Source: Clostridia bacterium (GTDB taxonomy: Bacteria; Bacillota; Clostridia; TANB77; CAG-508). Taken from it: a stretch of 64,000 nt of DNA. Below the pieces are notes generated by a model that was not told where the DNA came from, did not search any database, and saw only the letters and a list, made by a program, of their open reading frames with translations. A program made the position numbers and the translations under genes. The stretch covers positions 503-64,502 of the forward strand of contig JAFROW010000008.1 in assembly GCA_017429505.1 (NCBI GenBank), given 5' to 3'. This document shows, piece after piece, positions 46,545 through 63,688 of the stretch. Position 1 is the first letter of the stretch. Every line of letters begins with the position of its first letter.

Positions 46545-46642
46545 TATTTTAAAAATTCATAAACTAATCTTGATAAGGTCCTATATCTTAAGTATATTTT
46601 ATATTTTTATACTTTTGCCAACATTTTCAAACAAAAAATAAA

Positions 46643-46689
46643 CCCCGGGAGTAGCTGCGTAAGACATTTTCGTCGACGCACTCCCGGGG
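46643..46689 (-). terminator. GC-rich branched hairpin terminator
   Basis: CCCCGGGAGT...ACTCCCGGGG with an adjacent A-tract (U-tract on the minus strand). Confidence 0.7.
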
Positions 46690-46730
46690 CCTGTTCAGCC
46701 ATTATTTAGTTTTTTTTTGAAAGCTAGGCT

Positions 46731-47198: not shown

Positions 47199-47399
47199 GT
47201 CTTCTCCTTTCTCCATCGTTTTCAACGATTGAGGTTGCAAAATTGGCTGAACAACTATATTTACTACAATTCTATTATACCATATTTTTCTATTGTTGTC
47301 AATATTTTATGTAAATCACACTGCTTTTTTATGTAAATCATGTTGTTCTATTGTGTAAATAATACTACACTATTGCTATAATTCTATTATAAAAATATT

Positions 47400-47690
47400 T
47401 TATTTGTTATTATAATTGCTCACTATCTCTGATGGAATTTGATCAAGTTCTTTTTCATAACCTTCTCTTTCTCTTTTTAACCTATCAATTTGAAATCTTA
47501 ATTCTTCTATAATTGAATCTTTTTCAAATATTATTTTTTTATTTTCTTTTTCAAGATCCCTTGCTTTTTTTAAATATTCAGTTTTAAGATTTGCAATCTT
47601 TTTTTCATTTTCCTCATGTCTTTTTTTCAATTTTTCATTATACTTTAATAACCTATTAAAATTAAATTTTACAAATTCTTCTTTTAACAT
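47400..47690 (-). CDS. Small coiled-coil protein, paralogue of 47816
   Basis: Heptad pattern; KD..I..L..Q...LK.E......L..IP motif. Confidence 0.75.
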   Translation of the reverse strand: MLKEEFVKFNFNRLLKYNEKLKKRHEENEKKIANLKTEYLKKARDLEKENKKIIFEKDSIIEELRFQIDRLKREREGYEKELDQIPSEIVSNYNNK

Positions 47691-47815
47691 TTTTACACCT
47701 TTTCCCCTTCTTTATAATATCTTTAAAACTATATTTCTTATATCAAAAATATATCCAAATTAAAATATATTACCAATAAAGTCACAATCTTAAATTCCAT
47801 TAACCTCATAATTTT

Positions 47816-48112
47816 TTAAAAACTAATTTTTTTATACATTTTTCTAACAGAAAATGGAATATTATTAAGTTGTTTTCTCAAACTATTTGTTTCGTTTTTC
47901 AAATCTTGTAACTGAATTTTTAAAATATTTATTTCATTATCTTTTGAATTTATTATTCCATCATACCTTTGAGCATATTTTTGTATAATATTTTCACTTT
48001 CTTCTATCAATTGCTGAGTTTTATTATAGTCATCGTTTGTCTTGTTTTCCATTAAAACAGCGAAATTATAATGTTTTATAAAATCTTGTTTAAATTGTTC
48101 ATCTATTACCAT
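47816..48112 (-). CDS. Small coiled-coil protein, paralogue of 47400
   Basis: Same motif; SD AGGAG. Confidence 0.75.
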   Translation of the reverse strand: MVIDEQFKQDFIKHYNFAVLMENKTNDDYNKTQQLIEESENIIQKYAQRYDGIINSKDNEINILKIQLQDLKNETNSLRKQLNNIPFSVRKMYKKISF

Positions 48113-48215
48113 ATTTTCTTAAGCTCCTTTTAATTATTTAGGTTTTTAATCAAGGTTCTACCTATAAACCATTATTTAAAAATATGTTACTTTATAAATA
48201 TTTCCATTCCAAAAA

Positions 48216-51020
48216 TCATCTTTCTTTACTCATACTTATATGTTCAATAGCTTTATAAAAATTATTTAAGGTATAATATCCTCCCTTATATTGAAAACTT
48301 TTTGAATTAGGTTTCTCTATTTTATCGTTAAATTTAAATTCATTATTTTTTTCAAAATCAATATCATAACACAATTTTTCGGGCATTTTAATATTTATAA
48401 CTCTAACTTTTCCTTCTTCGTCTGAGATAAATTTGTTATTTTTTATTGTTACATTGTTGCACTTTGTAAGAGTAAGCATTTCCGAGTCTTTGCTACCACA
48501 ATTCTGTAATTCATTACCTTCAAAAATAACTTTATAAACTGTTCCTCTTTTTTCTTCAAATCCGCCAATCTGGACACCATATAAACAATTTAAAATGTAA
48601 TTATTTTTTACTGTAATATTCTCTGTTTCTCCATTTTTTGTTCCAGAATATGCAGTGTTTGCTATTTCTGCACCTATTTCAATTCCGCCCTCACATAAAC
48701 TTACTGTATTATTTTCTATTAAAATATCTTCCCCACCATCTACATAAATTCCGTAAGCTGAATCTGGATCATAAGGAGATTTACACTTACTAACATTACA
48801 ATTTCTAATTGTACCATTTCTTGGTCTATCTAACTTCTTATCTTCACAAGTACCTTGATTTCCACAAATACATATTCCAATATTTGATTTTACATTATTT
48901 GAAGTAATCATAACGTTTTCTATTAAAAAGTTTGTAATATTGCCTTCAAATGAAATTACTTCTGAGAATCCTGCTGCAACATCTTTACACTTGCAATTTT
49001 TAACTACTATGTTATTAATTGGAGTAATACTGCTTCCTACAACATAAATTGCATTAGAGCCTTTATCTGGATCTTTTTCATGCACACATCTTATATCTTC
49101 AAATGTACAATTATCAATTGTAATATCTGAAGTATTATCTCCATAAACCTTAACTCCTTGAGAATTATCTGCTAACATATGTGCAAATACAAATCCTTCT
49201 ACATATATTTTTTTTGAATTTTTTATTGAAAATAAGCTTCCACTTAGATTTTTTCCATCTATTATAACTTCTCCTTCTGCTTTAATGGTTATATCTTGTT
49301 TATTATGTATTTTTACTTTTTCATTATAGTCCCCTTCTTTAACAATTATAGTATCACCTGGTTGTGCTTTTTCTACCGCTTCTGAAATAGTTTTATATGT
49401 TCGTTCATCTTCGCTATCTTCTTTAGATACATAATATATATTTCCATTATTATTTTGAGTGTCTGCACCAGTGTTTTCGGTAGATTGATCAGTTGTAGAG
49501 TTCTGAGATACGTTTTGATGATTTTTTAAATATATTTCTTTTTCTACATCTTGTATAGCTTTTTCTATATTTTCAATCAGCTTCTTTTGTTGTTCTGGGT
49601 TTACTATATGTATAGCAGCATCTTTATTTCCATAAACTTCATCTTCTTCACCTATTATGTCTCCATTTTCATGTGCTAAATTATGTTTATTGTTTGTTAT
49701 TTCTATATAATATGCATAATCTAGCTTGCTACATAATTCTTTACTATGTTCATTAAATTCTTTTAGTTGATTTCTTCCATTTTCATCAAACCTATTTGGA
49801 ACATATTCTTCTTGAACCAAAATAATTGCATTAGGATATTTTTCGTGAGCTTCTTCTATTAATTTGTCCATATCACTCTTTACTAAATCGTTAACTCCCA
49901 TAGATATGTATACTCTTGTAATAGTAGTATTTTCATTTGCAGATTGCATCCATTTTATTCCATCAGCTGTTGTTGCGCTATCTACTGCATAATAGTTTTC
50001 TTCTTTAATACTTTTAGGTAATAAATGCTTTATTCCATTCATTCTAGAGTGAGAGATTATGACCATGTTTTCATTGAAAAAGTCTGAAATATCTCCTGTG
50101 AATGGTTTTCCTTCAATTGTTTTCGCCTCAGAATTATTTGTGTCTGTTGCTTGAGTTTGATTGTCAGATTGGGTTTGAGTTTGGTCTAAAGTTTGAGATA
50201 AATCTGTATTATAATAATATAAGCTTCCATCTTCTATTTCTGGAAATACTAGTGGCTCATCTGTATAATCTAAATAAAATTTCCAACCATAGTTTCCAAA
50301 AATCAAAGTTCCAATCATTCCATATAAAGCAAGTCTAAAATTTCTGTTTTCTTTTTCTTCTCTTATTTTGTTCTCTTCTCTTTTTAATTTCCATTTATTT
50401 AAAGTTCTTTTTATAAAGCCTTCTTTTTTTGGTTCTATTCTTTTTAATTGACTGTCACTTTTTTTTGTTGGAATTTCTTCTTTCTTCTTATCTCTATTCT
50501 GTATAATAGCTGTATCTTCGCCTTTAGTTTCACTTTTATTATCTTCTTTTCTTTTTTCAGAATCAGATTTGACTACATTTACAGCTTTTTCTTCTACTAT
50601 TCCTTCAGAAACTATTTCTCTTTCTTTTGAATCAACTTCAACAACATTTACAGCTGTATCTTCTACTTTTTCATCAGGAACTATTTTTCTTGTTTTTTGT
50701 TTTTGCTTTGATTGTGTTTTTGCCTGCTTGGTTAAATTACTAGGATTTTTTTGTCCTTTTATTATCTCATCTGGATCTATTCCAAATTTTCTTATAAAAA
50801 CTTGCTTTGTAGGATATATATATGGTGAATGAATTGACTTTCCTCTTTTATTTAAAAACTCAATTTTATATTTAGAAGATTCTTTTTTCACTTTTAATTC
50901 ACAGACTTTTTCAAGCTTTTTTCTTAGTTCATAAAAATCTTCCCTATCACTATATTTAAAATCAAAGTATTTTTTATTTTTTTCTATTATATCCCCTTTT
51001 TTACTACTATACGTAGACAT
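48216..51020 (-). CDS. Single-pass membrane protein: SGNH-like domain plus right-handed parallel beta-helix (pectin-lyase fold)
   Basis: TM at about aa 230-250; SHSRM/MGVND/AIH SGNH-like blocks; YKTISEAVEKAQPGDTIIVKEGDY and YGIYVDGGEDILIENN repeats. Confidence 0.8.
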   Translation of the reverse strand: MSTYSSKKGDIIEKNKKYFDFKYSDREDFYELRKKLEKVCELKVKKESSKYKIEFLNKRGKSIHSPYIYPTKQVFIRKFGIDPDEIIKGQKNPSNLTKQAKTQSKQKQKTRKIVPDEKVEDTAVNVVEVDSKEREIVSEGIVEEKAVNVVKSDSEKRKEDNKSETKGEDTAIIQNRDKKKEEIPTKKSDSQLKRIEPKKEGFIKRTLNKWKLKREENKIREEKENRNFRLALYGMIGTLIFGNYGWKFYLDYTDEPLVFPEIEDGSLYYYNTDLSQTLDQTQTQSDNQTQATDTNNSEAKTIEGKPFTGDISDFFNENMVIISHSRMNGIKHLLPKSIKEENYYAVDSATTADGIKWMQSANENTTITRVYISMGVNDLVKSDMDKLIEEAHEKYPNAIILVQEEYVPNRFDENGRNQLKEFNEHSKELCSKLDYAYYIEITNNKHNLAHENGDIIGEEDEVYGNKDAAIHIVNPEQQKKLIENIEKAIQDVEKEIYLKNHQNVSQNSTTDQSTENTGADTQNNNGNIYYVSKEDSEDERTYKTISEAVEKAQPGDTIIVKEGDYNEKVKIHNKQDITIKAEGEVIIDGKNLSGSLFSIKNSKKIYVEGFVFAHMLADNSQGVKVYGDNTSDITIDNCTFEDIRCVHEKDPDKGSNAIYVVGSSITPINNIVVKNCKCKDVAAGFSEVISFEGNITNFLIENVMITSNNVKSNIGICICGNQGTCEDKKLDRPRNGTIRNCNVSKCKSPYDPDSAYGIYVDGGEDILIENNTVSLCEGGIEIGAEIANTAYSGTKNGETENITVKNNYILNCLYGVQIGGFEEKRGTVYKVIFEGNELQNCGSKDSEMLTLTKCNNVTIKNNKFISDEEGKVRVINIKMPEKLCYDIDFEKNNEFKFNDKIEKPNSKSFQYKGGYYTLNNFYKAIEHISMSKER

Positions 51021-51047
51021 CTTTCTTCTCCCTATAATTATTCTTAA

Positions 51048-52865
51048 CTATTTTTCCTCTCTAGGATCAACATCAGTTTTCACTAAAATTACATCTTTAT
51101 AATCTCCACTATCTACTACATTTGAACTTATTTTATTATAACTTATTGGAACACGTAAATGTTGTAGTTTTCTTTGTCTATCTAATTCTCTTCTTATAAA
51201 TTCACTTTGTATTCTTTTAGCCTTTTTTCTTCCTTTTCTTTTTTTATTTGCATTTACGAAAAGCACAACAGCTAATTTCGCAATATTTTGCGCAGTTTCC
51301 TTGGCTTTCTTTATTGCATCTGTCTTCCATATAAAACCTTTAGTTATTATATTACTTTGAATTACAACTTCATCTTTTTTCAAATCTTCTTCCATATCTT
51401 CTTCTATAGATAATGAACCATCTTCTTCATATGTAATTATTTCTTTCTTTTTTTCCTCTATTTTCATTGAAATTGCAGGCTGATTACCACGTGTATCAAT
51501 AACACTATTTATTTTTCTTAAATAACTTCTATAATTTCTCAATTTTTCTCCAATAGGGCCTTCTTCAAAACTATGTTTAGCTTTATCATATAAATAATCA
51601 TAGAACTCATTTGGTTTTCCGTTAAAGTCTCTTACTAATCGTATCATCTCTTTTGTGTATGGCATATTTAATTTTGCCCATTCTCTTCTTGCAGATTTTG
51701 TTTCATATCCTCCAAATGGATTAGTTATTATTATTTCCCAATCTATATTATCATCTTTAAAATCTTTTTTTTCATCTTTTGTTTTAAATTCATATCCTAA
51801 ATCCATTAGTTCTCTTAAAGTCTTATGTGCTCCATATTCTATAAACTTAATTTGTTCTCCTGTTGGTATATAATTTCCATCACTATCAAGTTCAAACCCT
51901 TTTTTTGTTTTTCTTACCTTATTTTTCCTACATAAAATTTTTATTGTTTGACTAGATATTTTGTTTAAAAATTCACATTGTTTCTCATTAAGAAAAGCTA
52001 CTGACTTAGTTTCCTTATCAACTGCATAATATTTTTCACCATCAAAAAGTATAGTTATAGAGTTATATTCATCCTTCATCCAATCTGTTAATTCTTTTAC
52101 TGCAGTTAAACTATATTTATTTCCTTCAGAATCAAGTTCTTGCATATAAGTTTCTAGAATATAATTTATTTCGTTTGCTAATCGATTTTCATTTGTTAAA
52201 CCTTGCATGCTTGAAATATACCTTGAAAACTTATATGGAAGACAATGTCTTTGTCCATTAAACTCTACAATAAATGTTCCATCTGTTAATACATCTATAA
52301 TATATTTAGGTACATTTTTGTTGTTTATAGTTTCTAATGTATCTGTATCTAGCTCTTTATCTGAAGGATTTAAAAACATGTTTTTTATAATGTTTTGTTT
52401 AATAGCTTTTATATCTCTATATATTGAGTTTTCATCATCTTTATCATATATATCAAGTTTTTCTATAAGATGTATTAATTCTTGATCAGTAACATATATT
52501 TCTTTTCCTTTTAAACTAATCTTACATATTCTATTTTTATCTATTTGAATAGAATCTCCAGACTCTTTATATAATTCAATTATTTGAAATGGAATTTCTC
52601 CATTTTCTGTTTTTTCAAGTTCTTCACGAAAAAATCTTCTATATGATATTTGTTGACTAGTTCTTCTTGCCTCTTCTACACTTTTTGCCATTGGAACTTG
52701 ATCACATTCTTTAATAAATTCTTCCATAGCTTCTATAAGAGTAAGTTTTAACTTTTTTAGTTTTCTTCTATCCGCTTCTGTATTGCTTTCTATTCTAATC
52801 ATATTAGCATTTATATTTTTCTTTCTATTACTAATAAATTGTAAAAGCTCTTCTAAACTTGGCAT
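51048..52865 (-). CDS. Hypothetical protein, 605 aa
   Basis: Long ORF, SD GAGGAGG, closely spaced with its neighbours; no recognisable motif. Confidence 0.8.
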   Translation of the reverse strand: MPSLEELLQFISNRKKNINANMIRIESNTEADRRKLKKLKLTLIEAMEEFIKECDQVPMAKSVEEARRTSQQISYRRFFREELEKTENGEIPFQIIELYKESGDSIQIDKNRICKISLKGKEIYVTDQELIHLIEKLDIYDKDDENSIYRDIKAIKQNIIKNMFLNPSDKELDTDTLETINNKNVPKYIIDVLTDGTFIVEFNGQRHCLPYKFSRYISSMQGLTNENRLANEINYILETYMQELDSEGNKYSLTAVKELTDWMKDEYNSITILFDGEKYYAVDKETKSVAFLNEKQCEFLNKISSQTIKILCRKNKVRKTKKGFELDSDGNYIPTGEQIKFIEYGAHKTLRELMDLGYEFKTKDEKKDFKDDNIDWEIIITNPFGGYETKSARREWAKLNMPYTKEMIRLVRDFNGKPNEFYDYLYDKAKHSFEEGPIGEKLRNYRSYLRKINSVIDTRGNQPAISMKIEEKKKEIITYEEDGSLSIEEDMEEDLKKDEVVIQSNIITKGFIWKTDAIKKAKETAQNIAKLAVVLFVNANKKRKGRKKAKRIQSEFIRRELDRQRKLQHLRVPISYNKISSNVVDSGDYKDVILVKTDVDPREEK

Positions 52866-52898
52866 TTTTTACCTCCTCGTTTTTTATCTTGCTTATTA

Positions 52899-54323
52899 TT
52901 ATCTATCTATACCTTTTTCAAATATTTTTCCAACATTCGAATTTTTGGGTTGTATCGTTGTATTTTCTAAAAAGTTATTTTCAAAAGCTGTTGTCGTTGT
53001 ACTTCTTTCAAATGCATTTTTAAAAGCTTTTGTTTTTCTTCCCTCAAATGCATCTTCAAAAGCACTTGCTACTTTTTCTATACCTTTATAATCTATAAGC
53101 TTTGGGTCTAATCTAATATATTCTTTTAGTAGATATGTAGCTGCTTTAGCTCCACTTTCAAACTCTTGTTCATTATAAATATTTACTGTACTTTTTCCTT
53201 TTTTCACAAAAATATCATAGCTTCCTTTAAGATAATAAGCCATTTGTGGTTCAATATCATCAAATTTATAATCTGTACCATTTTCTGTATTATATTTTTC
53301 TAAAAATTTTACATAATCTTCCTTTAAAGAATATGACCATTGCATTACTCCAAAAAATTTGAATGCATCTCTTGAAACTGCATTAGGATTAAGTCCTGAT
53401 AAAAATAGCATATCTACTAGTGTTCCTATATTTTGTTCATCTTTTACTCCTTCACTTTTTAAATATGCATAAGCTTTAGATGCTACTTCTATCTGTTTGT
53501 CTGTTAAATTTAAAGTATTTTCATTTTCTAATTTTTGTTTTGCTTCTTGATAGTACATATATTTATATATTGCTTTTTCATATTTTTCTTTCAAAAGTTG
53601 TCTATCTTCTTTACTTATTTCTCTACCAATGCCTAATTCTTCATCTATAATACGATCGAAATTTTGATTTTTTATCATCCTGTCCCAAGGCACCTTTGCA
53701 AACCAAAGAGGTCTTATATCTATATTATTATTATTTCCTATATTGTATTTTAACGGAAATCTATCTACTTTCCCCTCTATTCCTGTATTACCTTCAACTG
53801 TTGAAAACTTGCCGTCTTTATAATCTATAACTATTCCCATATGATCTATAAAGTCAGGATTACTATCTGAATCGAAAAATACAAGATTTCCTGCTTGTGG
53901 AATATGACTTGCATCATTTTTTACTATTAATCCTTGATCTTTATACCATTTTAAAAATTTAGCAATGTTTAAATATTTAGCTCCCTGTGGTATTACATCT
54001 TCTGATATTCCACTTCGTTTTGCACTGTCCATTATAAATTCTGCAGAACTTACATCACTTATTTCACCTATATGGCTTTGAGCTTCTTTTACATATCTTT
54101 CTATTAAAAGTTGTCTGTCTTTTTTACTTATGTCTCTACCAATGCCTTGTTCCTCATCTTCATTTTGAGTATTGTTTTGATTTACAATGCTTACATGTTG
54201 TAAATTTGGTGTTAATGCAACCATAATTGCTGCTATAATTCCTGCTAATCTAACACTCATTCCTCTTATTATTCCTTTTTTACTTTCATTTTTATTTTCC
54301 ATTTCTTTCAATCTCCTTTTCAT
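52899..54323 (-). CDS. CHAP plus phage-tail-lysozyme-like protein with both catalytic residues substituted
   Basis: Paralogue of the C-terminal half of 54330 (EDVIPQGA, VFFDSD, KFSTVEGNT, WFAKVPW); Cys replaced by Ser and Glu by Leu. Confidence 0.8.
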   Translation of the reverse strand: MKRRLKEMENKNESKKGIIRGMSVRLAGIIAAIMVALTPNLQHVSIVNQNNTQNEDEEQGIGRDISKKDRQLLIERYVKEAQSHIGEISDVSSAEFIMDSAKRSGISEDVIPQGAKYLNIAKFLKWYKDQGLIVKNDASHIPQAGNLVFFDSDSNPDFIDHMGIVIDYKDGKFSTVEGNTGIEGKVDRFPLKYNIGNNNNIDIRPLWFAKVPWDRMIKNQNFDRIIDEELGIGREISKEDRQLLKEKYEKAIYKYMYYQEAKQKLENENTLNLTDKQIEVASKAYAYLKSEGVKDEQNIGTLVDMLFLSGLNPNAVSRDAFKFFGVMQWSYSLKEDYVKFLEKYNTENGTDYKFDDIEPQMAYYLKGSYDIFVKKGKSTVNIYNEQEFESGAKAATYLLKEYIRLDPKLIDYKGIEKVASAFEDAFEGRKTKAFKNAFERSTTTTAFENNFLENTTIQPKNSNVGKIFEKGIDR

Positions 54324-54329
54324 TTTTTA

Positions 54330-56726
54330 TTATCTTTCCTCACTTCTAAAGGCTAATCCTTTTTTATTTTCTTCAATTATTTGTCCATAGTATCTTTCTT
54401 TTTTTTCTTCTATCTCTTTATCTTCTGCTTTACATAAAAATTCTTCTACTTGTTTTACAAATTTGTTCCAATCAAAATTAGTAACATCTTTTTCATTTAA
54501 TTGTTTTGTATAACTTGATAAAATTATATTTTTTTGATTTTTTTTATTAAAAGATATATTTTTTTGATGATTTTTTATTATATTGTTATAGAACTTTTGC
54601 GCTGTTTCACCTCTGTTTGGATCAATATATTCTGGTCTTTCCCAATGTTCACAAAACCACATTGCTGCTTCTCTTGCATCTTTAAAATCTGTTTCCAAAT
54701 ATGCTTCAATTGTACGTTTATCACCATATGTATCTGGATCTCCATATAATAAATAATCCATTTGCACTAAGGTATTTCTCCAATCATAATTAGTGCCATG
54801 TTCTTTATTATATTTTTCAGTATACTCTAGTAAAGCTGTTTTTCGTCCCTCTGTCCATTGGCAATATCCTATTGAATCATATCCATCAGAAGATTTAGCT
54901 GCTATATGAAATGACGATTCATGATAAATATTTGCCCATATTCCAGCCATATGTATTAAATCTATATTTTTTTGTCTTAAAATATTAGCAACATCTTGAG
55001 CATTTTTTGATTGTTCATTATTAAATCCTAATCCTATGTCTACATCATCTGCTGTTATTTCACCTTTTATTGTTACTTGTGTTTGGCTTTTCTCTTGTTC
55101 TGGTACCATATTATTCCAAGGCACCTTTGCAAACCACATAGGCTTCATTTTTCCACTATTGTCAACTTTATTATCTCCAATTTTATATTTCAAATCATAT
55201 ACTGATACCTTCCCGCCTGTAGTATTTCCTTCAACTGTTGAAAATTTACCTTCTTTTGAATCTGTTACAACTCCTACATGATTTATCCATTCAGAATCAC
55301 CATCAGAATCAAAAAACACAATATCTCCTTCTTGTGGAATATAACTTCCATCATTTTTTACTATTAACCCTTGCTTTTCAAAAAACTTATACATCACTGC
55401 ACAACTTGCATATTGAGCTCCCTGTGGTATTACATCTTCAGGCACTCCATTATCATATGCCAAACGCATTATAGCGGCTGCACAATACTGATCTTTTGCT
55501 GAAGAACCTAATCCTAAATATTTAGTATATTTTTCGTCTTCATTTGTATCCCCCTTACGATTTTTAAATGCTTGTACATAATTATGTCTTGCATTTTTCT
55601 GCATTTGAGAAGACGTAAAATTTGAAACACTTTGAGATGATGTGAAATTTGAAACATAATTATTGTTATTATTTGTATAATAGTTTCCACCTTGATACCC
55701 AATTGCTTCGTCTAATTCTTCTTGAATTGCCAAACTACTGCTTGTTTCTACCAAATCTTTCGTTTCAATATTTATTCCAAAACCATTTAAAGAATATGTA
55801 GTTACATATAGTTTATTTGTATTAATGTCATATTGAACATCTGAGCCAAGTACTCTGTTTTTTGAATCACCTTTTTTATAGTATTCAGAAATACCTTTTG
55901 CATATATATAAATTGGTTGTTTATTTAATGCCATAGAATTTTTCTCATTTATTTGGTCTTTTATTTCTTTTGCTTCAACTTGGTACTCTTTTTCATCTAT
56001 CCAATAAATAGCTTCATTACCTATAAGCTTTATTTCTGTTCCCTTCTTTAATGTTTGCTCACCAAAAGCTTCTGTTTTTATTTTTACATCTTGTTTTGTT
56101 TTAAATGTATTTGCAATATTTAAATCAACATCATTTTTGGAAATTAATGCATATTTATCATTCCTAAAATCATATTTAATTAAATAATAGTCGCCATTTT
56201 CGACTTTTATTTTTCTTCCTGCAAAAAGCTTTTTTGATGGTATTTGTACCATTTTTTGTTCTTCTTTATCAGCAAATTTATATCCAAACATATTACATGG
56301 TATTGCTTGAATATTACTATCATCTTTAGTCGTAAAGAACCAATACTGTTTTTGCCATTGCAATGCTGTTGCATAAGCTTCAGGAGAAATGTTTTCTTCT
56401 GTCACAGTATCAGGAATTCCCAATGCTTTTCGAAATTTACCCATGTCTCCGAATTCTTTTTTTGCTGTTTCATTTAAGTCAAACATTTTAAATCCAACAT
56501 TTTCGACTAGTTGAAAAGTTTCATCCGTCATAACATCCCATAATATAGATGGACCGTTATCTATTTCTTTTTCTAGTTCTTCACTTATTTGCTCCTTACT
56601 TGAAAACTCAAATTTATCAACAAAAGTATGCCAATTGAGTAAAAGAGTAGCTGTTAAACCTGCCAATGCACTTTTTAAAATAATTTTTGGAATTTTAATA
56701 TTTTCATCTTCATTATTATCTTTCAT
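54330..56726 (-). CDS. Exported peptidoglycan hydrolase: CHAP amidase plus phage-tail-type lysozyme
   Basis: N-terminal hydrophobic segment; YCAAAI..PQEGDIVFF..HVGVV..VEGN; AGIWANIYHESS..GYCQWT..R..QMDYL..WERP. Confidence 0.87.
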   Translation of the reverse strand: MKDNNEDENIKIPKIILKSALAGLTATLLLNWHTFVDKFEFSSKEQISEELEKEIDNGPSILWDVMTDETFQLVENVGFKMFDLNETAKKEFGDMGKFRKALGIPDTVTEENISPEAYATALQWQKQYWFFTTKDDSNIQAIPCNMFGYKFADKEEQKMVQIPSKKLFAGRKIKVENGDYYLIKYDFRNDKYALISKNDVDLNIANTFKTKQDVKIKTEAFGEQTLKKGTEIKLIGNEAIYWIDEKEYQVEAKEIKDQINEKNSMALNKQPIYIYAKGISEYYKKGDSKNRVLGSDVQYDINTNKLYVTTYSLNGFGINIETKDLVETSSSLAIQEELDEAIGYQGGNYYTNNNNNYVSNFTSSQSVSNFTSSQMQKNARHNYVQAFKNRKGDTNEDEKYTKYLGLGSSAKDQYCAAAIMRLAYDNGVPEDVIPQGAQYASCAVMYKFFEKQGLIVKNDGSYIPQEGDIVFFDSDGDSEWINHVGVVTDSKEGKFSTVEGNTTGGKVSVYDLKYKIGDNKVDNSGKMKPMWFAKVPWNNMVPEQEKSQTQVTIKGEITADDVDIGLGFNNEQSKNAQDVANILRQKNIDLIHMAGIWANIYHESSFHIAAKSSDGYDSIGYCQWTEGRKTALLEYTEKYNKEHGTNYDWRNTLVQMDYLLYGDPDTYGDKRTIEAYLETDFKDAREAAMWFCEHWERPEYIDPNRGETAQKFYNNIIKNHQKNISFNKKNQKNIILSSYTKQLNEKDVTNFDWNKFVKQVEEFLCKAEDKEIEEKKERYYGQIIEENKKGLAFRSEER

Positions 56727-56735
56727 ATTCTTTCC

Positions 56736-59603
56736 CTATTTTTCTATTTCATTTTGATTGTCTTTATCTTTTTCTCCAAGTTTTCCTATTAATGTAAATC
56801 GTGCTTCAAGCTCACCTTGAGTTTGTTCTTTTACTTCTGTTCCTAAACATTTTTTATTATCTTCTGTTATTTTTATATTTTCTGGAGAACATATAGTCAT
56901 TTTTTTTCTACCAGTTCTAGCTCCCCATACATATTTATTAGTTGTGTTGTCATAATATATATGTATATCATTTGTTTCTATAAATACTTCTTTCCATCTA
57001 TCATTATATACAAGTAAATCTGAACTTGGTATAGTACCTGCAACATCCTTTCCAATAATAAGTTCACTTACAATTGCTGTATTGCCCACAATTAATATTT
57101 CCCTTCCTGCTTGTACATCATAAGCAGTTCCGTTTTGATCCGTTAATTTAGTATTTCTTATAACTAAAGCAGTACGTACAGTTTTTAATAAACTTCCATT
57201 ATTTACTAATGCATATATTTCTTTTATATTGCCATTTTCATCGACTATTTCATCTTTTATTACTCTACAATTTTTTTCTGCTGTATCAAACTTTGGATTT
57301 ACAGCATAATATGCAGGATACATTTTTTCCGAATTTAGCGAATATAACTGATTTGGATCTTCATAACTACCATTTTCATCACATATTATTCCTTGTGTAT
57401 TTGGCATTGGAATAACCATTGAATATTTCCTTTTTTCTCCTAACAGTCCAGCTACTGTTCCAAATAGTCTTTCCGCAAAATTTGGAATATCTCTTGCTCT
57501 TGGTTCTACTAGATTTTCTCCAGTTGTGTTTAATTTAGATAGAGTTGTAGCACCATTTTGCATATTTACATCATCTATTTTTATTATTCTTACACCATCT
57601 GATGTAGTTGCACCTTGTCTTGTGTTCAAAGTATTATTATCGCTTGTATTGGCTTTATATATCATATCTCCTACTTCTTTTTTATCTTTTATCTGTGCCA
57701 CAATTGCTTGTTGTTGTTCCACATTTAGTTCTTTTTTTGGTTTATAACTTCTTACTTTTGCATCTTTTGGAATTTGCAAATTAAATGTACTTATTGTATT
57801 TCCTTGAGTATCTTGAATCACATAAGGCACAATTTCAACATTCTGATATATTTCCGGAGTAATTACACCATGTGCTGATACCGAAAACTTTACACCATTA
57901 TTATATATAACACTATAAACAATTCCAAATTTTCCAGCTCTTGCAACTCTAATAGTTGACTCTGTTGTCGGGAATTTTTTAGAATTATCTTGCCACCAAT
58001 TTGAAATAGTATATTTTGGTTGAATTGCTACAATAAATTCTTCTATATTACTAGTTTTCATAGAATGGTGACTTAATTTAAATATATCAGCCCTAACATC
58101 AATCCCTTCTTCTAAAAGCTCTTTTTCTAAACCTGCTTCAATATCTCCACAAGTTAAGTAACGAATTTCTTTTCCATCTAAAGTTTGAACAGATATCCTT
58201 AATACTAAAGATTTATTATTTGTATAAGATTCATTATTATAATCTTTTCTTTTGTTATTTGGGTTATAAAGTACTTCAAATTTAGCCTTTCCTATATAAA
58301 ATGTATCATATTGTTTTAGTCTTACTACTCTTATACCCTTTTGTTTTGCAATTCTTTCTAACTTAGAATACATACTTTCTTTTCCTTCAGGCAAATATAA
58401 TGTATCTACTTTATAATTTTTCATTAAATATACTGCATTGCCCCAATGATCATCATGATTATGTGTAATTAATATATCAAAATGTTTATCTTTATAGTTT
58501 TTATCATTCATAAATTTAATAACAGAATCTCTTAAATCATCTTCCGAGGTATCTATCATTAAATAATGTCCATCACTTCCTATCATTGTCATATCACCAT
58601 GTGCTGTTCTTTTTATTTTCGGTTGTCCAGCACACTTTATGTTAGCACAATCAATTGTCATTAAAGTTTCATCTTGAGTAAAATTTACTATTTCAGTTGT
58701 ATTGGTTTGTTCATTATTGGTTGCTGTTTTACTATTTGTTTCTGTTACATTATCAGGTAATTTTTCATTATTAGATGAATGCTCATTATTTGTATTACTT
58801 AAAACATAACTAACATCAATCTCTTTTTCCTCATAGACTAATTTTCCTTTATCTGGATCAAAATATGCCTTAGTTGAATTTGGAAAGTCAAAAACCTTAA
58901 GGTGTATTATTTTTCTTTCTATACCTTTAGTACTCTTTGAATTAGCTTCGTGAACTTTCCCTATATTCACACCTTCTCCTTTTTTATGCCCAGAACTGCA
59001 TGAAACTTTTTTACCATTTCCTAAATAAAAATATACATGATTATTACGTCCACTTCCGTGATGTTCCCAAATAATATCTCCTGGAGACGCATTAGAATAA
59101 TCCCATTTTTCTCCTTTTTCAAAGTGAGCTACATCTACAGAATTTGGACAACCTCCATAGCCCCATTTTTCAGATTTAACATGTTCATTTAATATTCCTT
59201 CATGTTCCAATACTCTAAATATATACCAAGAACAATCTGAATAGCCTTTTTCTAATTTACCATGGTTTCTAAAATCTCCATGAGAAGAATCTATATAGGT
59301 AATATGTCCTCCCTTTTGAGTCGAAAAACTACATGCATAATTTAAAGTATCCTCAAGTTTTTTGATTGCTTCCAGATATTTTTCTGCATCAGTATTTGAG
59401 TTTTCTTCTATTTCTGTATTAGATTTTCCATCATTATTAGTAGTATTTGCCTCATTATTTTGTTCTATCTCTATAGCATAAACATTTTCTCCTATCGGAT
59501 TACTTGGTAATTGTGGAGTACTTCCTAGCATTGTTAAAGCAAGAGCTGCTGTACCCAATCTTATTCCTCTTTTTTTTGATTTTTTTTCAATTGGATTTTT
59601 CAT
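56736..59603 (-). CDS. Exported NlpC/P60 peptidase plus ComEC/Pce-type metallo-beta-lactamase-fold hydrolase
   Basis: Signal-like N-terminus; SDCSWYI..PGDII..HVYFYLGNG; THNHDDH, NNKSLV, GDIE, SHH. Confidence 0.87.
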   Translation of the reverse strand: MKNPIEKKSKKRGIRLGTAALALTMLGSTPQLPSNPIGENVYAIEIEQNNEANTTNNDGKSNTEIEENSNTDAEKYLEAIKKLEDTLNYACSFSTQKGGHITYIDSSHGDFRNHGKLEKGYSDCSWYIFRVLEHEGILNEHVKSEKWGYGGCPNSVDVAHFEKGEKWDYSNASPGDIIWEHHGSGRNNHVYFYLGNGKKVSCSSGHKKGEGVNIGKVHEANSKSTKGIERKIIHLKVFDFPNSTKAYFDPDKGKLVYEEKEIDVSYVLSNTNNEHSSNNEKLPDNVTETNSKTATNNEQTNTTEIVNFTQDETLMTIDCANIKCAGQPKIKRTAHGDMTMIGSDGHYLMIDTSEDDLRDSVIKFMNDKNYKDKHFDILITHNHDDHWGNAVYLMKNYKVDTLYLPEGKESMYSKLERIAKQKGIRVVRLKQYDTFYIGKAKFEVLYNPNNKRKDYNNESYTNNKSLVLRISVQTLDGKEIRYLTCGDIEAGLEKELLEEGIDVRADIFKLSHHSMKTSNIEEFIVAIQPKYTISNWWQDNSKKFPTTESTIRVARAGKFGIVYSVIYNNGVKFSVSAHGVITPEIYQNVEIVPYVIQDTQGNTISTFNLQIPKDAKVRSYKPKKELNVEQQQAIVAQIKDKKEVGDMIYKANTSDNNTLNTRQGATTSDGVRIIKIDDVNMQNGATTLSKLNTTGENLVEPRARDIPNFAERLFGTVAGLLGEKRKYSMVIPMPNTQGIICDENGSYEDPNQLYSLNSEKMYPAYYAVNPKFDTAEKNCRVIKDEIVDENGNIKEIYALVNNGSLLKTVRTALVIRNTKLTDQNGTAYDVQAGREILIVGNTAIVSELIIGKDVAGTIPSSDLLVYNDRWKEVFIETNDIHIYYDNTTNKYVWGARTGRKKMTICSPENIKITEDNKKCLGTEVKEQTQGELEARFTLIGKLGEKDKDNQNEIEK

Positions 59604-59626
59604 TTTTTATTCCTTCTTATTATCTA

Positions 59627-62008
59627 TTAATAATCTATCTCATCTCCGTCCCATTCTTCTCCTAATGCATCAAATGAGCTTTTTTCTGTGTCATCTGTAG
59701 TTTCTTCACTTTCTTCTAAATAATCTTCTTCATCTTGACTTTCATACTCTTCTTCGTAACTATCTTCATCTTCATATTCATCTTCTGTTTCATCATCAAG
59801 TGAATATTCTTGGTCATTTTCTTGCGCTATTAAATCTTTAAGAAGTTCTCCGTCTTTTAGACTAATACTACCAAAATGATCATTTTCATCTTCTACAGTA
59901 TATCCAGAGCTATGTTCACATAATGTAATATGTACTCCTTCTCCGAATATAAATTCTGGAATACCTTCTATATTAGTTGATGGATAAACATACAATTGTC
60001 CAATATTCTCATCTATCGTATATTCTCCCACTGGTGTATATCCTTGAGTTATATTATCTGTCATTTCTTCTTTTTTGTATTTATCTATACTTGAATTAAT
60101 TTTTCCTGTTTCTTCTCCTTCTATTGTAGTTACCATCATTCTTGGTTGTTCATTATTTTGTTCTTCTGACATTATTCCTATAGCATTAATCTTTTCTCCA
60201 TCTGCTGTAATCTCTTTACTTCCTAAAAAAGTCATTCCGCTTGGAATTATATTCTCTTCTTGTTCAGCTGTAGTAACTTCTTCTTTAGTTGTTAAAAATG
60301 TTGGAATTAATGTAACTAATGATATTTTATTTTTTCCATCATTATATTCCTCCATTATATAATCACCTATTTCCATCTTCTCGAGTTTTTTTGCTGATAT
60401 TTCACTTGTATAAACATTATCACCATCATTATAGAAATAAGTATAGTAATCATTTTCATTTGCATCTTGAGGATTATAATCTAAAACATCTATGTAACTT
60501 CCACCTTCTATCTCAATGTCATCTGTTACGTCTAATACTGTATTTCCATCTACACTCATTCTAGTTATTACAGGAGTTATCTCATACCTATCTACATTTT
60601 CTACAACTCCATCTTCTGTTATAATAACATTATCTTCTGGAATTACAAATTCATCTCTATCCATTTGAAGATAACCTAATTTTGTTTCTTTAGAAATAGG
60701 ATCTGTATATTTAACAATATAATATTTCCTATTATCTTCTTGTAAAACTTCTGGCATTTCTTGTTTTGTGTCTTCAAAAGCCTTCTCTTCCTCACTTCCT
60801 AATTCAGTAACAGTTTCTGTAGATGTATTTTTTAAAGAATCTGATTTATTATAAAAAAAAGTTTTTACAGATAAAAATGCAGTTATCATCATACCTGCTG
60901 CTCCTAAGATAAGTATAGGCATTCTTTTAAACTTTCTATCTACTCCGATATTTTTTGGTAAATTTTTTAACCTTCTTTTATTATTTTGTTCTGTAAAAAT
61001 ATCATTTACTATACTTGTTGCTTTTGTTTTTACTTTTGATGTTTGATAATTTGCAATCAATGTTTTTAAATCTTCTACACTTATTTCACACAAATTTCCA
61101 TAATTATCAAAAACTCTATCTTTTTTTAATTTTTCATATTCATCTTTTTTTAAATCTAAAATTGGTTGAAGAATTTTTTTCATTAAAACATCTTTACTAA
61201 TCTCATTTTCTTCAATTGCAAGAACAAGTTTTTTTAAAACAGATATATCTCCATGTTTATTAACTATTTTCGAAATCATATTAACAAATTCTTTTAAATG
61301 TACTGGTTTATCAATACATTCAAATTTATCCATAAAATGCACAGCAATTTCTAAAATTTCATTTCCTTTCGGATCACATGCAATCTTGCTAATAACAATT
61401 ACAAAATTACGATTATTAACTTTATTATTGTCACCAAATTTTTCACTTATTGCTTTTATAATTTTCTTAGTCTCTTCTAAATTAATTTTTGAGTAACTTT
61501 TTTTTACTCCTTCAATAATACCTTTCTCAATATTATATACATAATCTCCTTCTGCATCTCTTTCTGAATCACTTTTGATATAGTTATAATCATATGTATC
61601 ATACAAATAATTTGTTAAATATGCTAAATCTTTGTATATAGATTCACACTTAGATTTTCTTACTATTTTACTTTCTAAAAGTTCTCTTAAAACTTCTACT
61701 GAATTATCATCTATATGTTGAACAGAATCTATACTTTCTGCGTTTACTTTTTTGTTATACTTTAATGCATCAAAGTAAATTCCTCGCCATGGAAAACGTT
61801 CTTCATTTTCATTGTTACTACTTATGTATTCTTGAGATTGTTCTTGTTCTTGAGCTTCTAAATCTGATGAATTTATTGATTGTGCATCTAAATTATCTGA
61901 TGAAGAATTTGATTGTGGTTGTTCCTCTCCATTATTAAATTCAACTATTACCTTTCTCGCTCCAACTTTTTGAACTTGTGTTAAAAAATCTTGTTCATTA
62001 ATATTCAT
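59627..62008 (-). CDS. Single-pass membrane protein with large helical N-terminal part, beta-rich C-terminal part and acidic tail
   Basis: TM MPILILGAAGMMITAFLSV mid-protein; E/D-rich last ~60 aa; SD GGAGGAG. Confidence 0.8.
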   Translation of the reverse strand: MNINEQDFLTQVQKVGARKVIVEFNNGEEQPQSNSSSDNLDAQSINSSDLEAQEQEQSQEYISSNNENEERFPWRGIYFDALKYNKKVNAESIDSVQHIDDNSVEVLRELLESKIVRKSKCESIYKDLAYLTNYLYDTYDYNYIKSDSERDAEGDYVYNIEKGIIEGVKKSYSKINLEETKKIIKAISEKFGDNNKVNNRNFVIVISKIACDPKGNEILEIAVHFMDKFECIDKPVHLKEFVNMISKIVNKHGDISVLKKLVLAIEENEISKDVLMKKILQPILDLKKDEYEKLKKDRVFDNYGNLCEISVEDLKTLIANYQTSKVKTKATSIVNDIFTEQNNKRRLKNLPKNIGVDRKFKRMPILILGAAGMMITAFLSVKTFFYNKSDSLKNTSTETVTELGSEEEKAFEDTKQEMPEVLQEDNRKYYIVKYTDPISKETKLGYLQMDRDEFVIPEDNVIITEDGVVENVDRYEITPVITRMSVDGNTVLDVTDDIEIEGGSYIDVLDYNPQDANENDYYTYFYNDGDNVYTSEISAKKLEKMEIGDYIMEEYNDGKNKISLVTLIPTFLTTKEEVTTAEQEENIIPSGMTFLGSKEITADGEKINAIGIMSEEQNNEQPRMMVTTIEGEETGKINSSIDKYKKEEMTDNITQGYTPVGEYTIDENIGQLYVYPSTNIEGIPEFIFGEGVHITLCEHSSGYTVEDENDHFGSISLKDGELLKDLIAQENDQEYSLDDETEDEYEDEDSYEEEYESQDEEDYLEESEETTDDTEKSSFDALGEEWDGDEIDY

Positions 62009-62048
62009 TTTTTCTCCTCCAACATTATTGTATACATTTTATGTCAAT

Positions 62049-62077
62049 ATTATATCATATTTTCTTTTTTTAGTCAA
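62049..62077 (-). promoter_or_regulatory. Sigma-A promoter heading the 62008-48216 gene run
   Basis: TTGACT-17-TATAAT with extended TG. Confidence 0.7.
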
Positions 62078-62307
62078 CATAATATCTAAATTTTATGTAT
62101 TAAATTTAATGAGTATTTCCACTAATTAATATATTTTTAAAATTATTGTTTACTTTTTCTGTAAACTATGATATAATGTTTACATAAATTACATTTCTAT
62201 AGTGACTATTTGCTCTTTTATTAAGCAAATTTTACACTATTTAAAATATATGGTTTGAGAAAGGAGGGATTTATTCGATTTTTTTACACAAGATAAGGAG
62301 AAGTATT

Positions 62308-63594: not shown

Positions 63595-63617
63595 AAGATT
63601 TCTCAAACCATAAAACC

Positions 63618-63651: not shown

Positions 63652-63688
63652 GGGTTGTTAAAAACTACAAAAAACGAAATGGAAGCTA

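What the first reader, a model, noticed from the sequence alone, without database searches (positions are those of the whole stretch)
47400..62077. Candidate undescribed envelope-breaching operon: layered cell-wall hydrolases without phage or conjugation core genes
Seen: one sigma-A promoter heads six large genes separated by only 23, 9, 6, 33 and 27 bp, followed by two small coiled-coil paralogues. Five of the six large products have a signal or TM segment. Their domains are NlpC/P60, ComEC/Pce-type MBL, CHAP, phage-tail-type lysozyme, SGNH-like esterase and a pectin-lyase beta-helix. Established: these families can cut stem peptides, the glycan backbone, teichoic-acid phosphoesters (Pce), O-acetyl groups and surface polysaccharides. 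No terminase, capsid, integrase, relaxase, VirB4/VirD4 or EssC is recognisable in the window. Inference: a membrane-anchored machine that opens every layer of a Gram-positive envelope, possibly for attack on or attachment to other bacteria by a reduced-genome clostridium, or for building a trans-envelope appendage.
Basis: partly seen in the sequence, partly recalled or inferred. Interest (0 to 1): 0.88.

Follow-up and report, generated by a model that had tools for sequence, protein, structure and literature searches.

The report
Accessory operon of membrane-tethered cell-wall hydrolases
An uncultured ruminant-gut bacterium carries a rare, fast-evolving operon of cell-envelope-cutting enzymes and orphan proteins that lies in no phage or conjugative element; its enzymes are of familiar kinds and its purpose is still unknown.

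Summary
The eight minus-strand genes, the 23/9/6/33/27-bp gaps and the near-consensus promoter are real. Firm domain calls are a ComEC/Pce-type MBL, CHAP plus a phi29-gp13/PF18013 muramidase, and a right-handed beta-helix. NlpC/P60 sits at its Pfam cutoff but a paralogue supports it. SGNH is weak. New findings: gene 4 (D474) is a dead copy of gene 3, with CHAP Cys to Ser and muramidase Glu to Leu. The divergent gene at 62308-63594 travels with the operon. No phage or ICE core gene was found in the window or in 40 kb beyond it. A real VirB4+CHAP module lies on another contig. The locus was not found in the congeners or family genomes searched, yet its gene order is kept in one metagenome contig, in strain contigs from three other studies, and apparently in several sister-lineage contigs. 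dN/dS is 0.3-0.6 and the second gene swaps domains. The closest analogue is PrgK, the anchored, self-regulating hydrolase of the pCF10 T4SS. My best reading (0.42) is a regulated module that opens the producer's own wall. Attack on neighbouring cells is possible (0.25). A "machine" is not shown. I rate it a new variant of a known kind, interest 0.45.

The parts
62049..62077 (-). Sigma-A-type promoter TTGACT-17-TATAAT with TG extension, about 40 nt upstream of the first ATG
   Evidence: 11 of 12 matches; second best of 102 sites in the region scanned
59627..62008 (-). A793: bitopic orphan protein. It has a helical cytoplasmic domain (about 71-345), a TM segment at 363-381 after a basic stretch, a beta-rich outer region and an acidic C-terminal tail.
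   Evidence: No Pfam, PHROG or NCBIfam match. TM. Only 5 relatives among 5.8 billion clusters. The cytoplasmic core is more conserved than the outer part. AF2 pLDDT is 39, so the model is unusable.
56736..59603 (-). B955: signal-peptide-like N-terminus, NlpC/P60 endopeptidase (about 121-219), ComEC/Pce-type metallo-beta-lactamase-fold phosphodiesterase (about 335-600, HNHDDH motif) and a C-terminal region of unknown fold.
   Evidence: ComEC 9vc6 at 1.1e-11, Pce/CbpE 1wra at 1.1e-7. The MBL core is about 70% conserved while the flanking domains are shuffled among the 5 relatives.
54330..56726 (-). C798: N-terminal anchor (12-30), about 350-aa spacer of unknown fold, CHAP peptidase (Cys present), gp13/PF18013-type muramidase (Glu present). 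The make-up is PrgK-like.
   Evidence: aligned to phi29 gp13 3csr, with the Glu on gp13 Glu45. PrgK passages.
52899..54323 (-). D474: shorter paralogue of C (34% identity over 325 aa) with an N-terminal anchor. The CHAP nucleophile Cys is replaced by Ser (the whole protein has no Cys) and the muramidase Glu by Leu. It is probably a pseudo-enzyme.
   Evidence: The CHAP-like segment is absent from the L024 orthologue.
51048..52865 (-). E605: orphan Lys/Glu-rich protein with no signal peptide or TM segment, presumably cytoplasmic.
   Evidence: Only 2 clusters among 1.84 billion representatives.
48216..51020 (-). F934: about 225-aa Lys/Glu-rich N-terminus, weak hydrophobic stretch at about 228-250, low-complexity linker, SGNH-like alpha/beta domain (about 320-440) and a right-handed parallel beta-helix (about 527-900).
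   Evidence: The beta-helix is 46% identical to a dockerin/Big_2 protein of the same genome.
47816..48112 (-). G98: small coiled-coil-like protein. It is the best-conserved part of the locus (>=90% clusters) and was not found in 40 congeners.
47400..47690 (-). H96: small coiled-coil-like protein, a weak paralogue of G98, with >=90% cluster members in the sister lineage.
62308..63594 (+). up428: divergently transcribed orphan membrane protein with two N-terminal hydrophobic segments and a Ser/Asn-rich linker. It co-travels with the operon.
   Evidence: A 58%-identical homologue sits in the same divergent position in L024. Not found in 40 congeners.

Best explanation
This is an accessory, chromosomal operon driven by a sigma-A-type promoter, with a divergent membrane-protein gene beside it. 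The host is an uncultured low-GC (27.5%), 2-Mb gut bacterium that carries a Spo0A gene. The operon places a set of envelope-cutting enzymes on the outer face of the producer's own membrane. B carries an NlpC/P60 endopeptidase and a ComEC/Pce-type phosphodiesterase. C is PrgK-like, with CHAP and a gp13-type muramidase. D is a catalytically dead copy of C. F carries an SGNH-like domain and a polysaccharide-cleaving beta-helix. Lineage-specific proteins with large cytoplasmic parts (A, E, the N-terminus of F, G, H) accompany them. I infer that it works as a locally controlled wall-opening or remodelling module acting on the producer's own wall. This is how the anchored hydrolases PrgK, TraG and CwlT of Gram-positive conjugation systems and Pmp23 of the pneumococcal divisome work. 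The dead paralogue and the cytoplasmic partners would restrain or position the active enzymes. Shown: gene structure, domain families, presence or loss of catalytic residues, chromosomal context, distribution, and linkage of the genes. Inferred: topology, co-transcription, self-directed action, the regulatory role of D, and any complex. What the opening is for is unknown.
For: The genes are tightly packed behind one strong promoter, and each has an RBS. A, C and D have N-terminal or internal anchors. C combines CHAP with a muramidase that aligns to phi29 gp13, with its Glu on gp13's Glu45. Passages of PMC10394673 call that Glu catalytic. Passages of PMC11323569 say that PrgK is membrane-bound. 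They say its MUR domain has gp13 as its only PDB structural homologue, and that its non-catalytic LytM and CHAP domains down-regulate the muramidase. They also say that fully extended PrgK reaches only about mid-wall. D has lost both catalytic residues but is retained. In A the cytoplasmic core is more conserved than the outer part (98 vs 85% in the nearest relative, 56 vs 49% in the farthest). The locus stays together: L024 has up428-A-B-C-D in the same order. Contigs from 3 runs of 3 other studies bridge all six junctions from G/F to B/A (table 8). Cluster members of A, E and F share six 'longest contig' lengths, and G and H share one of them. Passages of PMC5954120 describe Pmp23 as a TM-anchored lysozyme-type hydrolase with a divisome role.
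Against: The locus is not a core function. A was not found in 40 relatives or in 400 family genomes. up428 and G were not found in 40 congeners. C and B gave only weak domain-level hits. It evolves fast: against L024, dN/dS is 0.49 (A), 0.63 (B), 0.31 (C) and 0.35 (up428), with uneven dS of 0.25-0.71, and B swaps its N-terminal domain. That pattern fits conflict loci better than housekeeping autolysins. The nearest relatives of the beta-helix and NlpC/P60 modules sit on dockerin-bearing proteins, which presumably act on outside substrates. B looks secreted rather than anchored. The anchor of F is weak. No partner apparatus that would need a hole in the wall is encoded nearby.
Confidence: 0.42

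Rival explanations
1. It is an outward-acting lytic battery. The enzymes are displayed on long stalks or released, and they degrade the envelopes of neighbouring bacteria or of dead cells: peptidoglycan, teichoic acid or DNA, and capsule or EPS. The purpose would be competition or nutrient scavenging by a small-genome gut bacterium. This is closest to the first reader's idea.
For: The trait is accessory and patchily distributed. dN/dS is high, dS is mosaic, and B shuffles domains. The module relatives carry dockerins. The set of domains mirrors that of phage tail-associated lysins: the MBL hits a PHROG annotated as tail protein, the CHAP hits endolysin PHROGs, and the abstract of PMC10194240 lists tail lysins against wall, teichoic acid and polysaccharide. 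B has a cleavable-looking signal peptide. C has a spacer of about 350 aa.
Against: No immunity gene is recognisable. A, C and D are anchored. As far as I recall, known anchored PG hydrolases act on the producer's wall, and PrgK reaches only mid-wall. Large cytoplasmic parts (A N-terminus, E, G, H) serve no obvious purpose for secreted lysins. The nearby FemAB gene is conserved housekeeping (84% identity and syntenic in a congener), not an island-borne immunity factor.
Confidence: 0.25
2. It is a remnant or a module of an undescribed mobile or trans-envelope apparatus. In this reading the operon is the wall-breaching part of a transfer, secretion or appendage system whose other parts lie elsewhere or are the orphan proteins A, E, G, H and up428.
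For: The PrgK-like make-up of C and D resembles VirB1-type hydrolases. The orphans have bitopic or coiled-coil features. The locus sits in a region where synteny with congeners breaks, right after FemAB, next to a YoeB/RelB pair.
Against: No VirB4, coupling protein, relaxase, integrase, terminase, capsid or EssC family was found among the 8 operon products, the 30 other window proteins or the 20 proteins beyond the window edge that I scanned. GC content equals that of the genome. The genome's recognisable VirB4-like ATPase has its own CHAP protein and sortase on contig C5. There are no relatives in viral contigs, phage records or plasmid records. Synteny in this genus is scrambled everywhere, so the break is not specific to this locus.
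Confidence: 0.12
3. It is a loose collection with no joint function. Unrelated extracytoplasmic enzymes, for example F as a plant-pectin esterase/lyase and B as a nuclease, and fast-evolving filler genes merely share a transcript.
For: Foldseek matches for F are to PL6 lyases, GH28 polygalacturonases and tailspikes alike. Its paralogue is a dockerin enzyme. The host lives in ruminant guts. No shared domain links A and B. Orphan Lys/Glu-rich proteins are, by my recollection, common in AT-rich genomes.
Against: Gene order is kept across lineages that differ by up to 50% in protein sequence. Gaps of 6-33 bp are kept. Four of six large products carry peptidoglycan-directed or related domains.
Confidence: 0.13

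Closest known systems
PrgK (pCF10), and by recollection TraG (pIP501) and CwlT (ICEBs1): VirB1-type hydrolases of Gram-positive conjugative T4SS
   Same: Each has an N-terminal membrane anchor, a gp13-type muramidase and a CHAP or Cys-peptidase domain in one protein. Non-catalytic hydrolase-fold domains act as regulators (PrgK passages). C798 aligns to gp13 and D474 is a dead copy.
   Different: No VirB4, coupling protein, relaxase or VirB8-like PrgL partner is recognisable nearby. The domain order is CHAP then muramidase, there is no LytM domain, and the regulator is a separate gene. A true VirB4+CHAP module lies elsewhere in the genome.
Phage virion-associated peptidoglycan hydrolases: phi29 gp13, tape-measure lysozyme domains, tail lysins
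   Same: The muramidase family is PF18013/gp13. The CHAP matches endolysin PHROGs and the MBL matches a PHROG annotated as tail protein. The beta-helix resembles tailspike depolymerases.
   Different: There are no virion, packaging or lysis-timing genes. The proteins have membrane anchors. Phage records give only matches below 40% identity over under 20% of C and about 27% identity for the MBL. Viral contigs hold no relative of A or B.
Pneumococcal surface hydrolase set: Pce/CbpE, and by recollection LytA, LytB, LytC and CbpD; also the membrane-anchored Pmp23
   Same: The classes of activity overlap: MBL phosphodiesterase (Pce is a PDB hit), CHAP, and lysozyme. Pmp23 is a TM-anchored lysozyme-type hydrolase acting at the division site.
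   Different: The pneumococcal enzymes are scattered in the genome and held on the wall by choline-binding repeats. Here they sit in one operon, are membrane- or signal-anchored, and have no recognised wall-binding repeat. Pmp23 is of the CwlT bLysG type, with a DVMQSSES motif that I did not see in C798.
ComEC C-terminal MBL nuclease domain
   Same: It is the best solved-structure match of B's MBL (9vc6, E 1.1e-11) and the best NCBIfam match (TIGR00361, 68 bits). The HxHxDH motif is present.
   Different: The score is far below the ComEC equivalog cutoff (190 bits). B has no competence channel or OB domain and is fused to NlpC/P60 on a secreted protein.

Membership tests
Gram-positive conjugative T4SS (hydrolase module) | VirB4-type ATPase, coupling protein and relaxase encoded with the hydrolase | tested here: not met
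   None was found among the 8 operon products, 30 other window proteins or 20 proteins in the next 40 kb. A TraG-P-loop/AAA_10 ATPase with a sortase and a CHAP protein lies on contig C5 instead.
Gram-positive conjugative T4SS (hydrolase module) | Membrane-anchored protein with a muramidase or transglycosylase plus a Cys-peptidase domain | tested here: met
   C798 has an anchor at 12-30, CHAP at 28.5 bits (cutoff 26) and PF18013 at 80.7 bits.
Prophage / tail-associated lysin module | Adjacent virion or packaging genes, or relatives on viral contigs | tested here: not met
   PHROG hits are limited to the enzyme domains. Four phage records give weak partial hits. Relatives of A and B in IMG/VR: 0.
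PF18013 / phi29 gp13-type muramidase | Family HMM above cutoff, and a Glu at the position of gp13 Glu45 | tested here: met
   C798 scores 80.7 bits over model positions 1-139 of 140. The Glu of its YHESS segment aligns with gp13 E45. That residue is called catalytic in passages of PMC10394673. D474 scores 33.7 bits but has Leu at that position, so it has the fold and probably not the activity.
CHAP (PF05257) | HMM above cutoff, and Cys and His catalytic residues | tested here: met
   C798 scores 28.5 bits (cutoff 26) and has Cys and His in the aligned motif. D474 scores 24.1 bits, below the cutoff, has Ser in place of the Cys and has no Cys in the whole protein. The feature is therefore not met for D474. 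Which Cys is the nucleophile rests on alignment to endolysin PHROGs and on recollection of the family.
NlpC/P60 (PF00877) | HMM above cutoff, and Cys and His motifs | tested here: met
   B955 scores 23.3 bits against a cutoff of 23, which is marginal. It is 41.5% identical over 183 aa to a same-genome paralogue scoring 71.7 bits. DCS and NHV motifs can be read. The L024 orthologue lacks this domain.
ComEC/Pce clade of the metallo-beta-lactamase fold | HxHxDH metal motif, and nearest relatives ComEC-MBL or Pce rather than true beta-lactamases | tested here: met
   HNHDDH is invariant in 5 of 5 aligned proteins. PDB matches: ComEC at 1.1e-11, Pce/CbpE at 1.1e-7, class B beta-lactamases at 0.012 or weaker. 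The substrate (DNA or teichoic-acid phosphodiester) was not tested.
SGNH/GDSL esterase | HMM above cutoff, and the Ser/Gly/Asn/His blocks | tested here: inconclusive
   F934 scores 22.1 bits against a cutoff of 32.9, and its orthologue P0027 scores 18.2 bits. AF2 gives an alternating beta/alpha pattern at pLDDT 47-73. A GVND block can be read, but the Ser and His blocks are unclear.
Right-handed parallel beta-helix polysaccharide lyases/hydrolases | The beta-helix fold; specific catalytic residues define the enzyme family | tested here: met
   The fold is met: pLDDT is above 90 over about 370 residues, Foldseek prob is 1.0 to PL6, GH28, GH136 and tailspikes at 10-16% identity, and homologues carry PF13229. 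The enzyme family and substrate are not resolved.
Known autolysin or sporulation operons; T7SS | Match to a curated family (NCBIfam equivalogs; WXG100/EssC) | tested here: not met
   No NCBIfam hit reaches its cutoff for any of the 8 proteins. G98 and H96 give only sub-threshold coiled-coil hits, and no WXG100 or FtsK/EssC family is listed.

The most novel reading that the evidence does not exclude
A small clade of uncultured ruminant-gut Clostridia has built a previously undescribed contact-dependent envelope-breaching apparatus from wall-cutting modules of the phage and conjugation type. In this reading the orphan proteins A, E, G, H and up428 form a new membrane and cytoplasmic scaffold. 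That scaffold positions the peptidase, muramidase, phosphodiesterase and depolymerase against a neighbouring Gram-positive cell, for feeding or killing. It would use none of the known secretion ATPases.
Probability: 0.12. Interest if true: 0.8.

Novelty: new variant of a known kind. Interest (0 to 1): 0.45.

Why it matters
If the products act together, this is a compact natural example of how a Gram-positive cell controls several dangerous wall hydrolases. It uses an active enzyme, a dead paralogue and cytoplasmic partners, with no phage or conjugation machinery involved. It comes from a large uncultured gut group whose cell biology is unknown. The enzymes may also be of practical interest: the PrgK-like CHAP-muramidase, the NlpC/P60-MBL fusion with a swappable N-terminal module, and the anchored beta-helix depolymerase are candidate lysins or depolymerases from the rumen. 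If it is only a lineage-specific autolysin cluster, it is a modest addition to a well-known class.

Tried and rejected
AF2 of A793 with a 6-sequence alignment gave pLDDT 39 and pTM 0.25, so I ran no fold search on it.

The ESM Atlas gave no usable feature hit for A793 or E605. Its own model of A793 has pLDDT 0.34.

An exhaustive HMMER search for E605 found only its own cluster and one 29%-identical protein of 850 aa with no Pfam family.

The hhalign comparison of the A family against the B family found no shared domain.

PDB sequence searches with whole C798 and with its CHAP segment found nothing.

Scans of genome contigs (2) and the first metagenome-contig scan found no relatives. The second metagenome scan gave one locus, L024.

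I tried to define island borders by synteny and failed. In G015, FtsH-DUF1189-alr-FemAB is kept and then the order jumps to genes of other G000 contigs. Around Spo0A in G019 the order is scrambled. The tblastx map was mostly low-complexity noise.

Complex prediction of C798 (385-725) with D474 (60-440) gave no verdict (score 0.01, controls not run). That is no evidence either way.

The look-up of sequencing runs listed no RNA holder, so expression is untested.

Read laying at 80% likeness gave many spurious joints in this AT-rich DNA. I used only the long pieces in its table 8.

Rfam found no regulatory RNA in 45000-64000; the one L20-leader hit is sub-threshold.

Literature: searches turned up no description of this operon or of an NlpC/P60-MBL fusion. 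One search failed on a term format and was re-sent. Supplements were not consulted.

I considered and dropped FemAB as a lysostaphin-type immunity gene, because it is conserved and syntenic in congeners. I also dropped G98 and H96 as WXG100 proteins, because no such family hit appeared.


Full report
WHAT IS THERE. Eight ORFs lie head to tail on the minus strand of the window. They are A793 (59627-62008), B955 (56736-59603), C798 (54330-56726), D474 (52899-54323), E605 (51048-52865), F934 (48216-51020), G98 (47816-48112) and H96 (47400-47690). The gaps between them are 23, 9, 6, 33 and 27 bp, then 103 and 125 bp. Each ATG is preceded by a purine-rich ribosome-binding motif. A TTGACT-17-TATAAT promoter with a TG extension sits at 62077-62049. 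It scores 11 of 12 and is the second best of 102 promoter-like sites in the 16 kb scanned. The total count of such sites is no higher than in shuffles. The best site (12 of 12, at 47302-47274) heads the next gene downstream, so the unit ends before it. No terminator-like site was found after H96.

DOMAINS: B. B955 has a ComEC/Pce-type MBL domain. Pfam Lactamase_B gives 27.9 bits and TIGR00361 ComEC gives 68 bits, far below its cutoff of 190. The best solved relatives are ComEC (1.1e-11) and the pneumococcal teichoic-acid phosphorylcholine esterase Pce/CbpE (1.1e-7). The HNHDDH motif is invariant in 5 of 5 aligned proteins. B's NlpC/P60 domain sits right at its cutoff (23.3 against 23). It is 41.5% identical over 183 aa to a same-genome paralogue that scores 71.7 bits.

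DOMAINS: C AND D. C798 has CHAP (28.5 bits) and a PF18013 lysozyme (80.7 bits, full model length). The lysozyme segment aligns to the N-terminal domain of phi29 gp13 (3csr, E 0.027). Its Glu falls on gp13 Glu45, which passages of PMC10394673 call the catalytic residue. D474 is a paralogue of C, 34% identical over 325 aa. It has Ser at the CHAP Cys position, no Cys anywhere in the protein, and Leu at the muramidase Glu position. It is therefore most likely a pseudo-enzyme.

DOMAINS: F AND THE ORPHANS. F934's C-terminal half is a confident right-handed beta-helix. AF2 gives pLDDT above 90 there, and Foldseek gives prob 1.0 to PL6 lyases, GH28 and GH136 enzymes and tailspikes at 10-16% identity. 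Its SGNH-like domain is only weakly supported: 22.1 bits against a cutoff of 32.9, and pLDDT 47-73. A793, E605 and H96 match nothing in Pfam, PHROGs or NCBIfam above noise.

TOPOLOGY. Hydrophobic segments that pass a standard threshold occur in A (363-381, after a basic stretch, which implies an N-terminus inside the cell), in C (12-30) and in D (18-47). B has a signal-peptide-like N-terminus. F has only a weak stretch near 228-250. E has none.

CONTEXT. The genome (G000) is 1.98 Mb in 14 contigs at 27.5% GC. The window lies at the start of a 293-kb contig. The operon's GC content (26-29%) equals that of its surroundings.
- Downstream lie a small secreted protein, a Sm_multidrug_ex protein, a YoeB/RelB pair, FemAB, alanine racemase, DUF1189, FtsH, GH15, DUF285, BacA, GroEL, TyrRS, FeoB, PBP1, ArgRS, pyruvate kinase and further housekeeping genes.
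- Upstream, beyond the window edge, lie membrane proteins, SPFH, Spo0A, a MazF-like protein, an ABC transporter, a PD-(D/E)XK transposase-family protein, a sigma factor, an A2M-like protein, HisRS, RecN, ClpX and trigger factor.
- No terminase, capsid, integrase, relaxase, VirB4/VirD4 or EssC family appeared among the 8 operon products or the 50 other proteins scanned. Small ORFs were not scanned.
- The genome does hold a recognisable conjugation-type module elsewhere. On contig C5 a TraG-P-loop/AAA_10 ATPase sits next to a sortase and a CHAP protein.

DISTRIBUTION IN REFERENCE GENOMES.
- A793 was not found in 40 relatives (24 congeners and 16 genomes of the same order) or in 400 genomes of the family.
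- up428 and G98 were not found in 40 congeners.
- C798 gave only weak single-domain hits in 5 of 24 congeners, inside ORFs of 113 to 1882 aa.
- B955 gave only generic hits at about 30% identity, to its MBL region in the rows shown, in 214 of 300 family genomes.

DISTRIBUTION IN LARGE COLLECTIONS.
- Among 5.8 billion protein clusters, B has 5 true relatives and A has 5.
- E has its own cluster and one distant relative among 1.84 billion representatives.
- No relative of A or B was found on viral contigs.
- Phage and plasmid records gave only weak partial domain hits to C.

LINKAGE OF THE GENES WHERE THE LOCUS OCCURS.
- (i) The metagenome contig L024 (9.8 kb) carries a divergent up428 homologue (58% identity), then A (73%), B (51% over the MBL and C-terminus, with the N-terminal part replaced and no NlpC/P60), C (82%) and the start of D.
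- (ii) Near-identical DNA occurs in animal-gut metagenomes of 11 studies, labelled sheep or bovine where named. Long contig pieces from three runs of three studies other than the likely source bridge all six junctions G/F, F/E, E/D, D/C, C/B and B/A (table 8).
- (iii) Cluster members of A (about 76%), E (85%) and F (87-89%) share six identical 'longest contig' lengths. G and H share one of these. B, A, F and G variants at 92-96% share a 19,007-nt contig. A 48% A-relative shares a 7,441-nt contig with a B-relative.
Item (iii) is indirect, because equal lengths are not coordinates.

EVOLUTION. Against L024, dN/dS is 0.49 (A), 0.63 (B), 0.31 (C) and 0.35 (up428), and dS is uneven (0.25, 0.71, 0.28, 0.71). 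This points to fast, mosaic change. B's MBL core is about 70% conserved, while NlpC/P60, SGNH-like and other modules come and go around it. In A the cytoplasmic core is better conserved than the outer part. G and H are the most conserved parts of the locus, with clusters at 90% identity or more across lineages. The L024 orthologue of D lacks the CHAP-like segment. In D474 that segment is flanked by a direct peptide repeat.

INTERPRETATION: THE CLOSEST ANALOGUE. The closest described analogue of C and D is PrgK of the pCF10 T4SS. According to passages of PMC11323569, PrgK is membrane-bound. Its muramidase domain has phi29 gp13 as its only structural homologue in the PDB. Its degenerate LytM and its CHAP domain show no hydrolysis and instead damp the muramidase. 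Fully extended, the protein reaches about mid-wall. Pmp23 is a further anchored lysozyme-type hydrolase that acts on the producer's own wall (passages of PMC5954120).

INTERPRETATION: MY READING. On this basis I read the operon as a regulated module that opens or remodels the producer's own wall, with confidence 0.42. D would tune C. The orphan proteins with cytoplasmic parts would position or gate the enzymes. All of these steps are inferred.

INTERPRETATION: WHAT ARGUES AGAINST IT. The locus is accessory and evolves fast. Its modules have dockerin-bearing relatives. Its set of domains mirrors that of phage tail lysins (abstract of PMC10194240). A link to an unknown apparatus (0.12) and a transcript with no joint function (0.13) remain possible.

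KNOWN OR NEW. Every catalytic domain belongs to a known family. Anchored bifunctional hydrolases and dead-paralogue regulators both have precedents. Several things are new here. These modules are combined in one conserved chromosomal operon without phage or T4SS genes. NlpC/P60 is fused to a ComEC/Pce-type MBL. The pseudo-enzyme is a stand-alone gene. Five proteins in the locus are orphans. My four literature searches found no description of such an operon. An earlier AI note places this genome in the uncultured order TANB77; I did not test that. The outline of PMC11680825 contains nothing on wall hydrolases. My verdict is a new variant of a known kind, with interest 0.45.

Noticed in passing
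window 62038-62063 and 62163-62188: A 26-nt inverted repeat (88% complementary) in the 299-bp divergent intergenic region contains the -10 region of the operon promoter. Its mirror image overlaps a plus-strand promoter-like site (TTTACT-17-TATAAT, 62149-62177) facing up428. The two divergent promoters therefore look like an inverted duplication, or share an operator.
   Followed up: partly
window 52899-54323 (D474) and L024 9358-9756: In D474 the CHAP-like segment is flanked by a direct peptide repeat (GIGR-D/E-ISK..DRQLL). The partial orthologue in L024 goes from the first repeat straight to the region after the CHAP-like segment, as if that segment had been deleted by recombination between the repeats.
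   Followed up: partly
L032 (G000 contig C5, 2731-7770): A conjugation-type module sits here: a 776-aa TraG-P-loop/AAA_10 (VirB4-like) ATPase, a sortase, a 391-aa CHAP protein and a small MBL-fold protein in a row.
   Followed up: partly
L030 2909-6727 (G000 contig C8): A 1272-aa protein carries NlpC/P60 (71.7 bits) and PF18013 lysozyme (81.9 bits) among TelA and HD-domain genes. The large ORFs (1192-1882 aa) hit in four congeners by C798's lysozyme domain may be its orthologues.
   Followed up: no
L031 4129-6900 (G000 contig C3): A 923-aa protein has a dockerin, five Big_2 domains and a beta-helix that is 46% identical to that of F934. The organism therefore makes dockerin-bearing enzymes.
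   Followed up: no
window 45269-45800: A YoeB-toxin/RelB-antitoxin pair lies between FemAB and the operon region, right where synteny with the closest congener (G015) ends.
   Followed up: partly
window 47274-47302 and 46731-47240: A perfect 12-of-12 sigma-70 consensus promoter with TG extension heads a small acidic protein (P0025) with an N-terminal hydrophobic segment and no family match.
   Followed up: no
L026-L029 (G015 contig C11, G019 contig C4) against G000: Gene order within this genus is heavily scrambled. Blocks of 4-10 genes are kept, but their neighbours map to different G000 contigs.
   Followed up: partly
L001 14503-19410 (beyond the window edge): A 1635-aa alpha-2-macroglobulin-like protein with Big_5 and A2M bait-region domains lies beside a sigma-70-family factor.
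   Followed up: no
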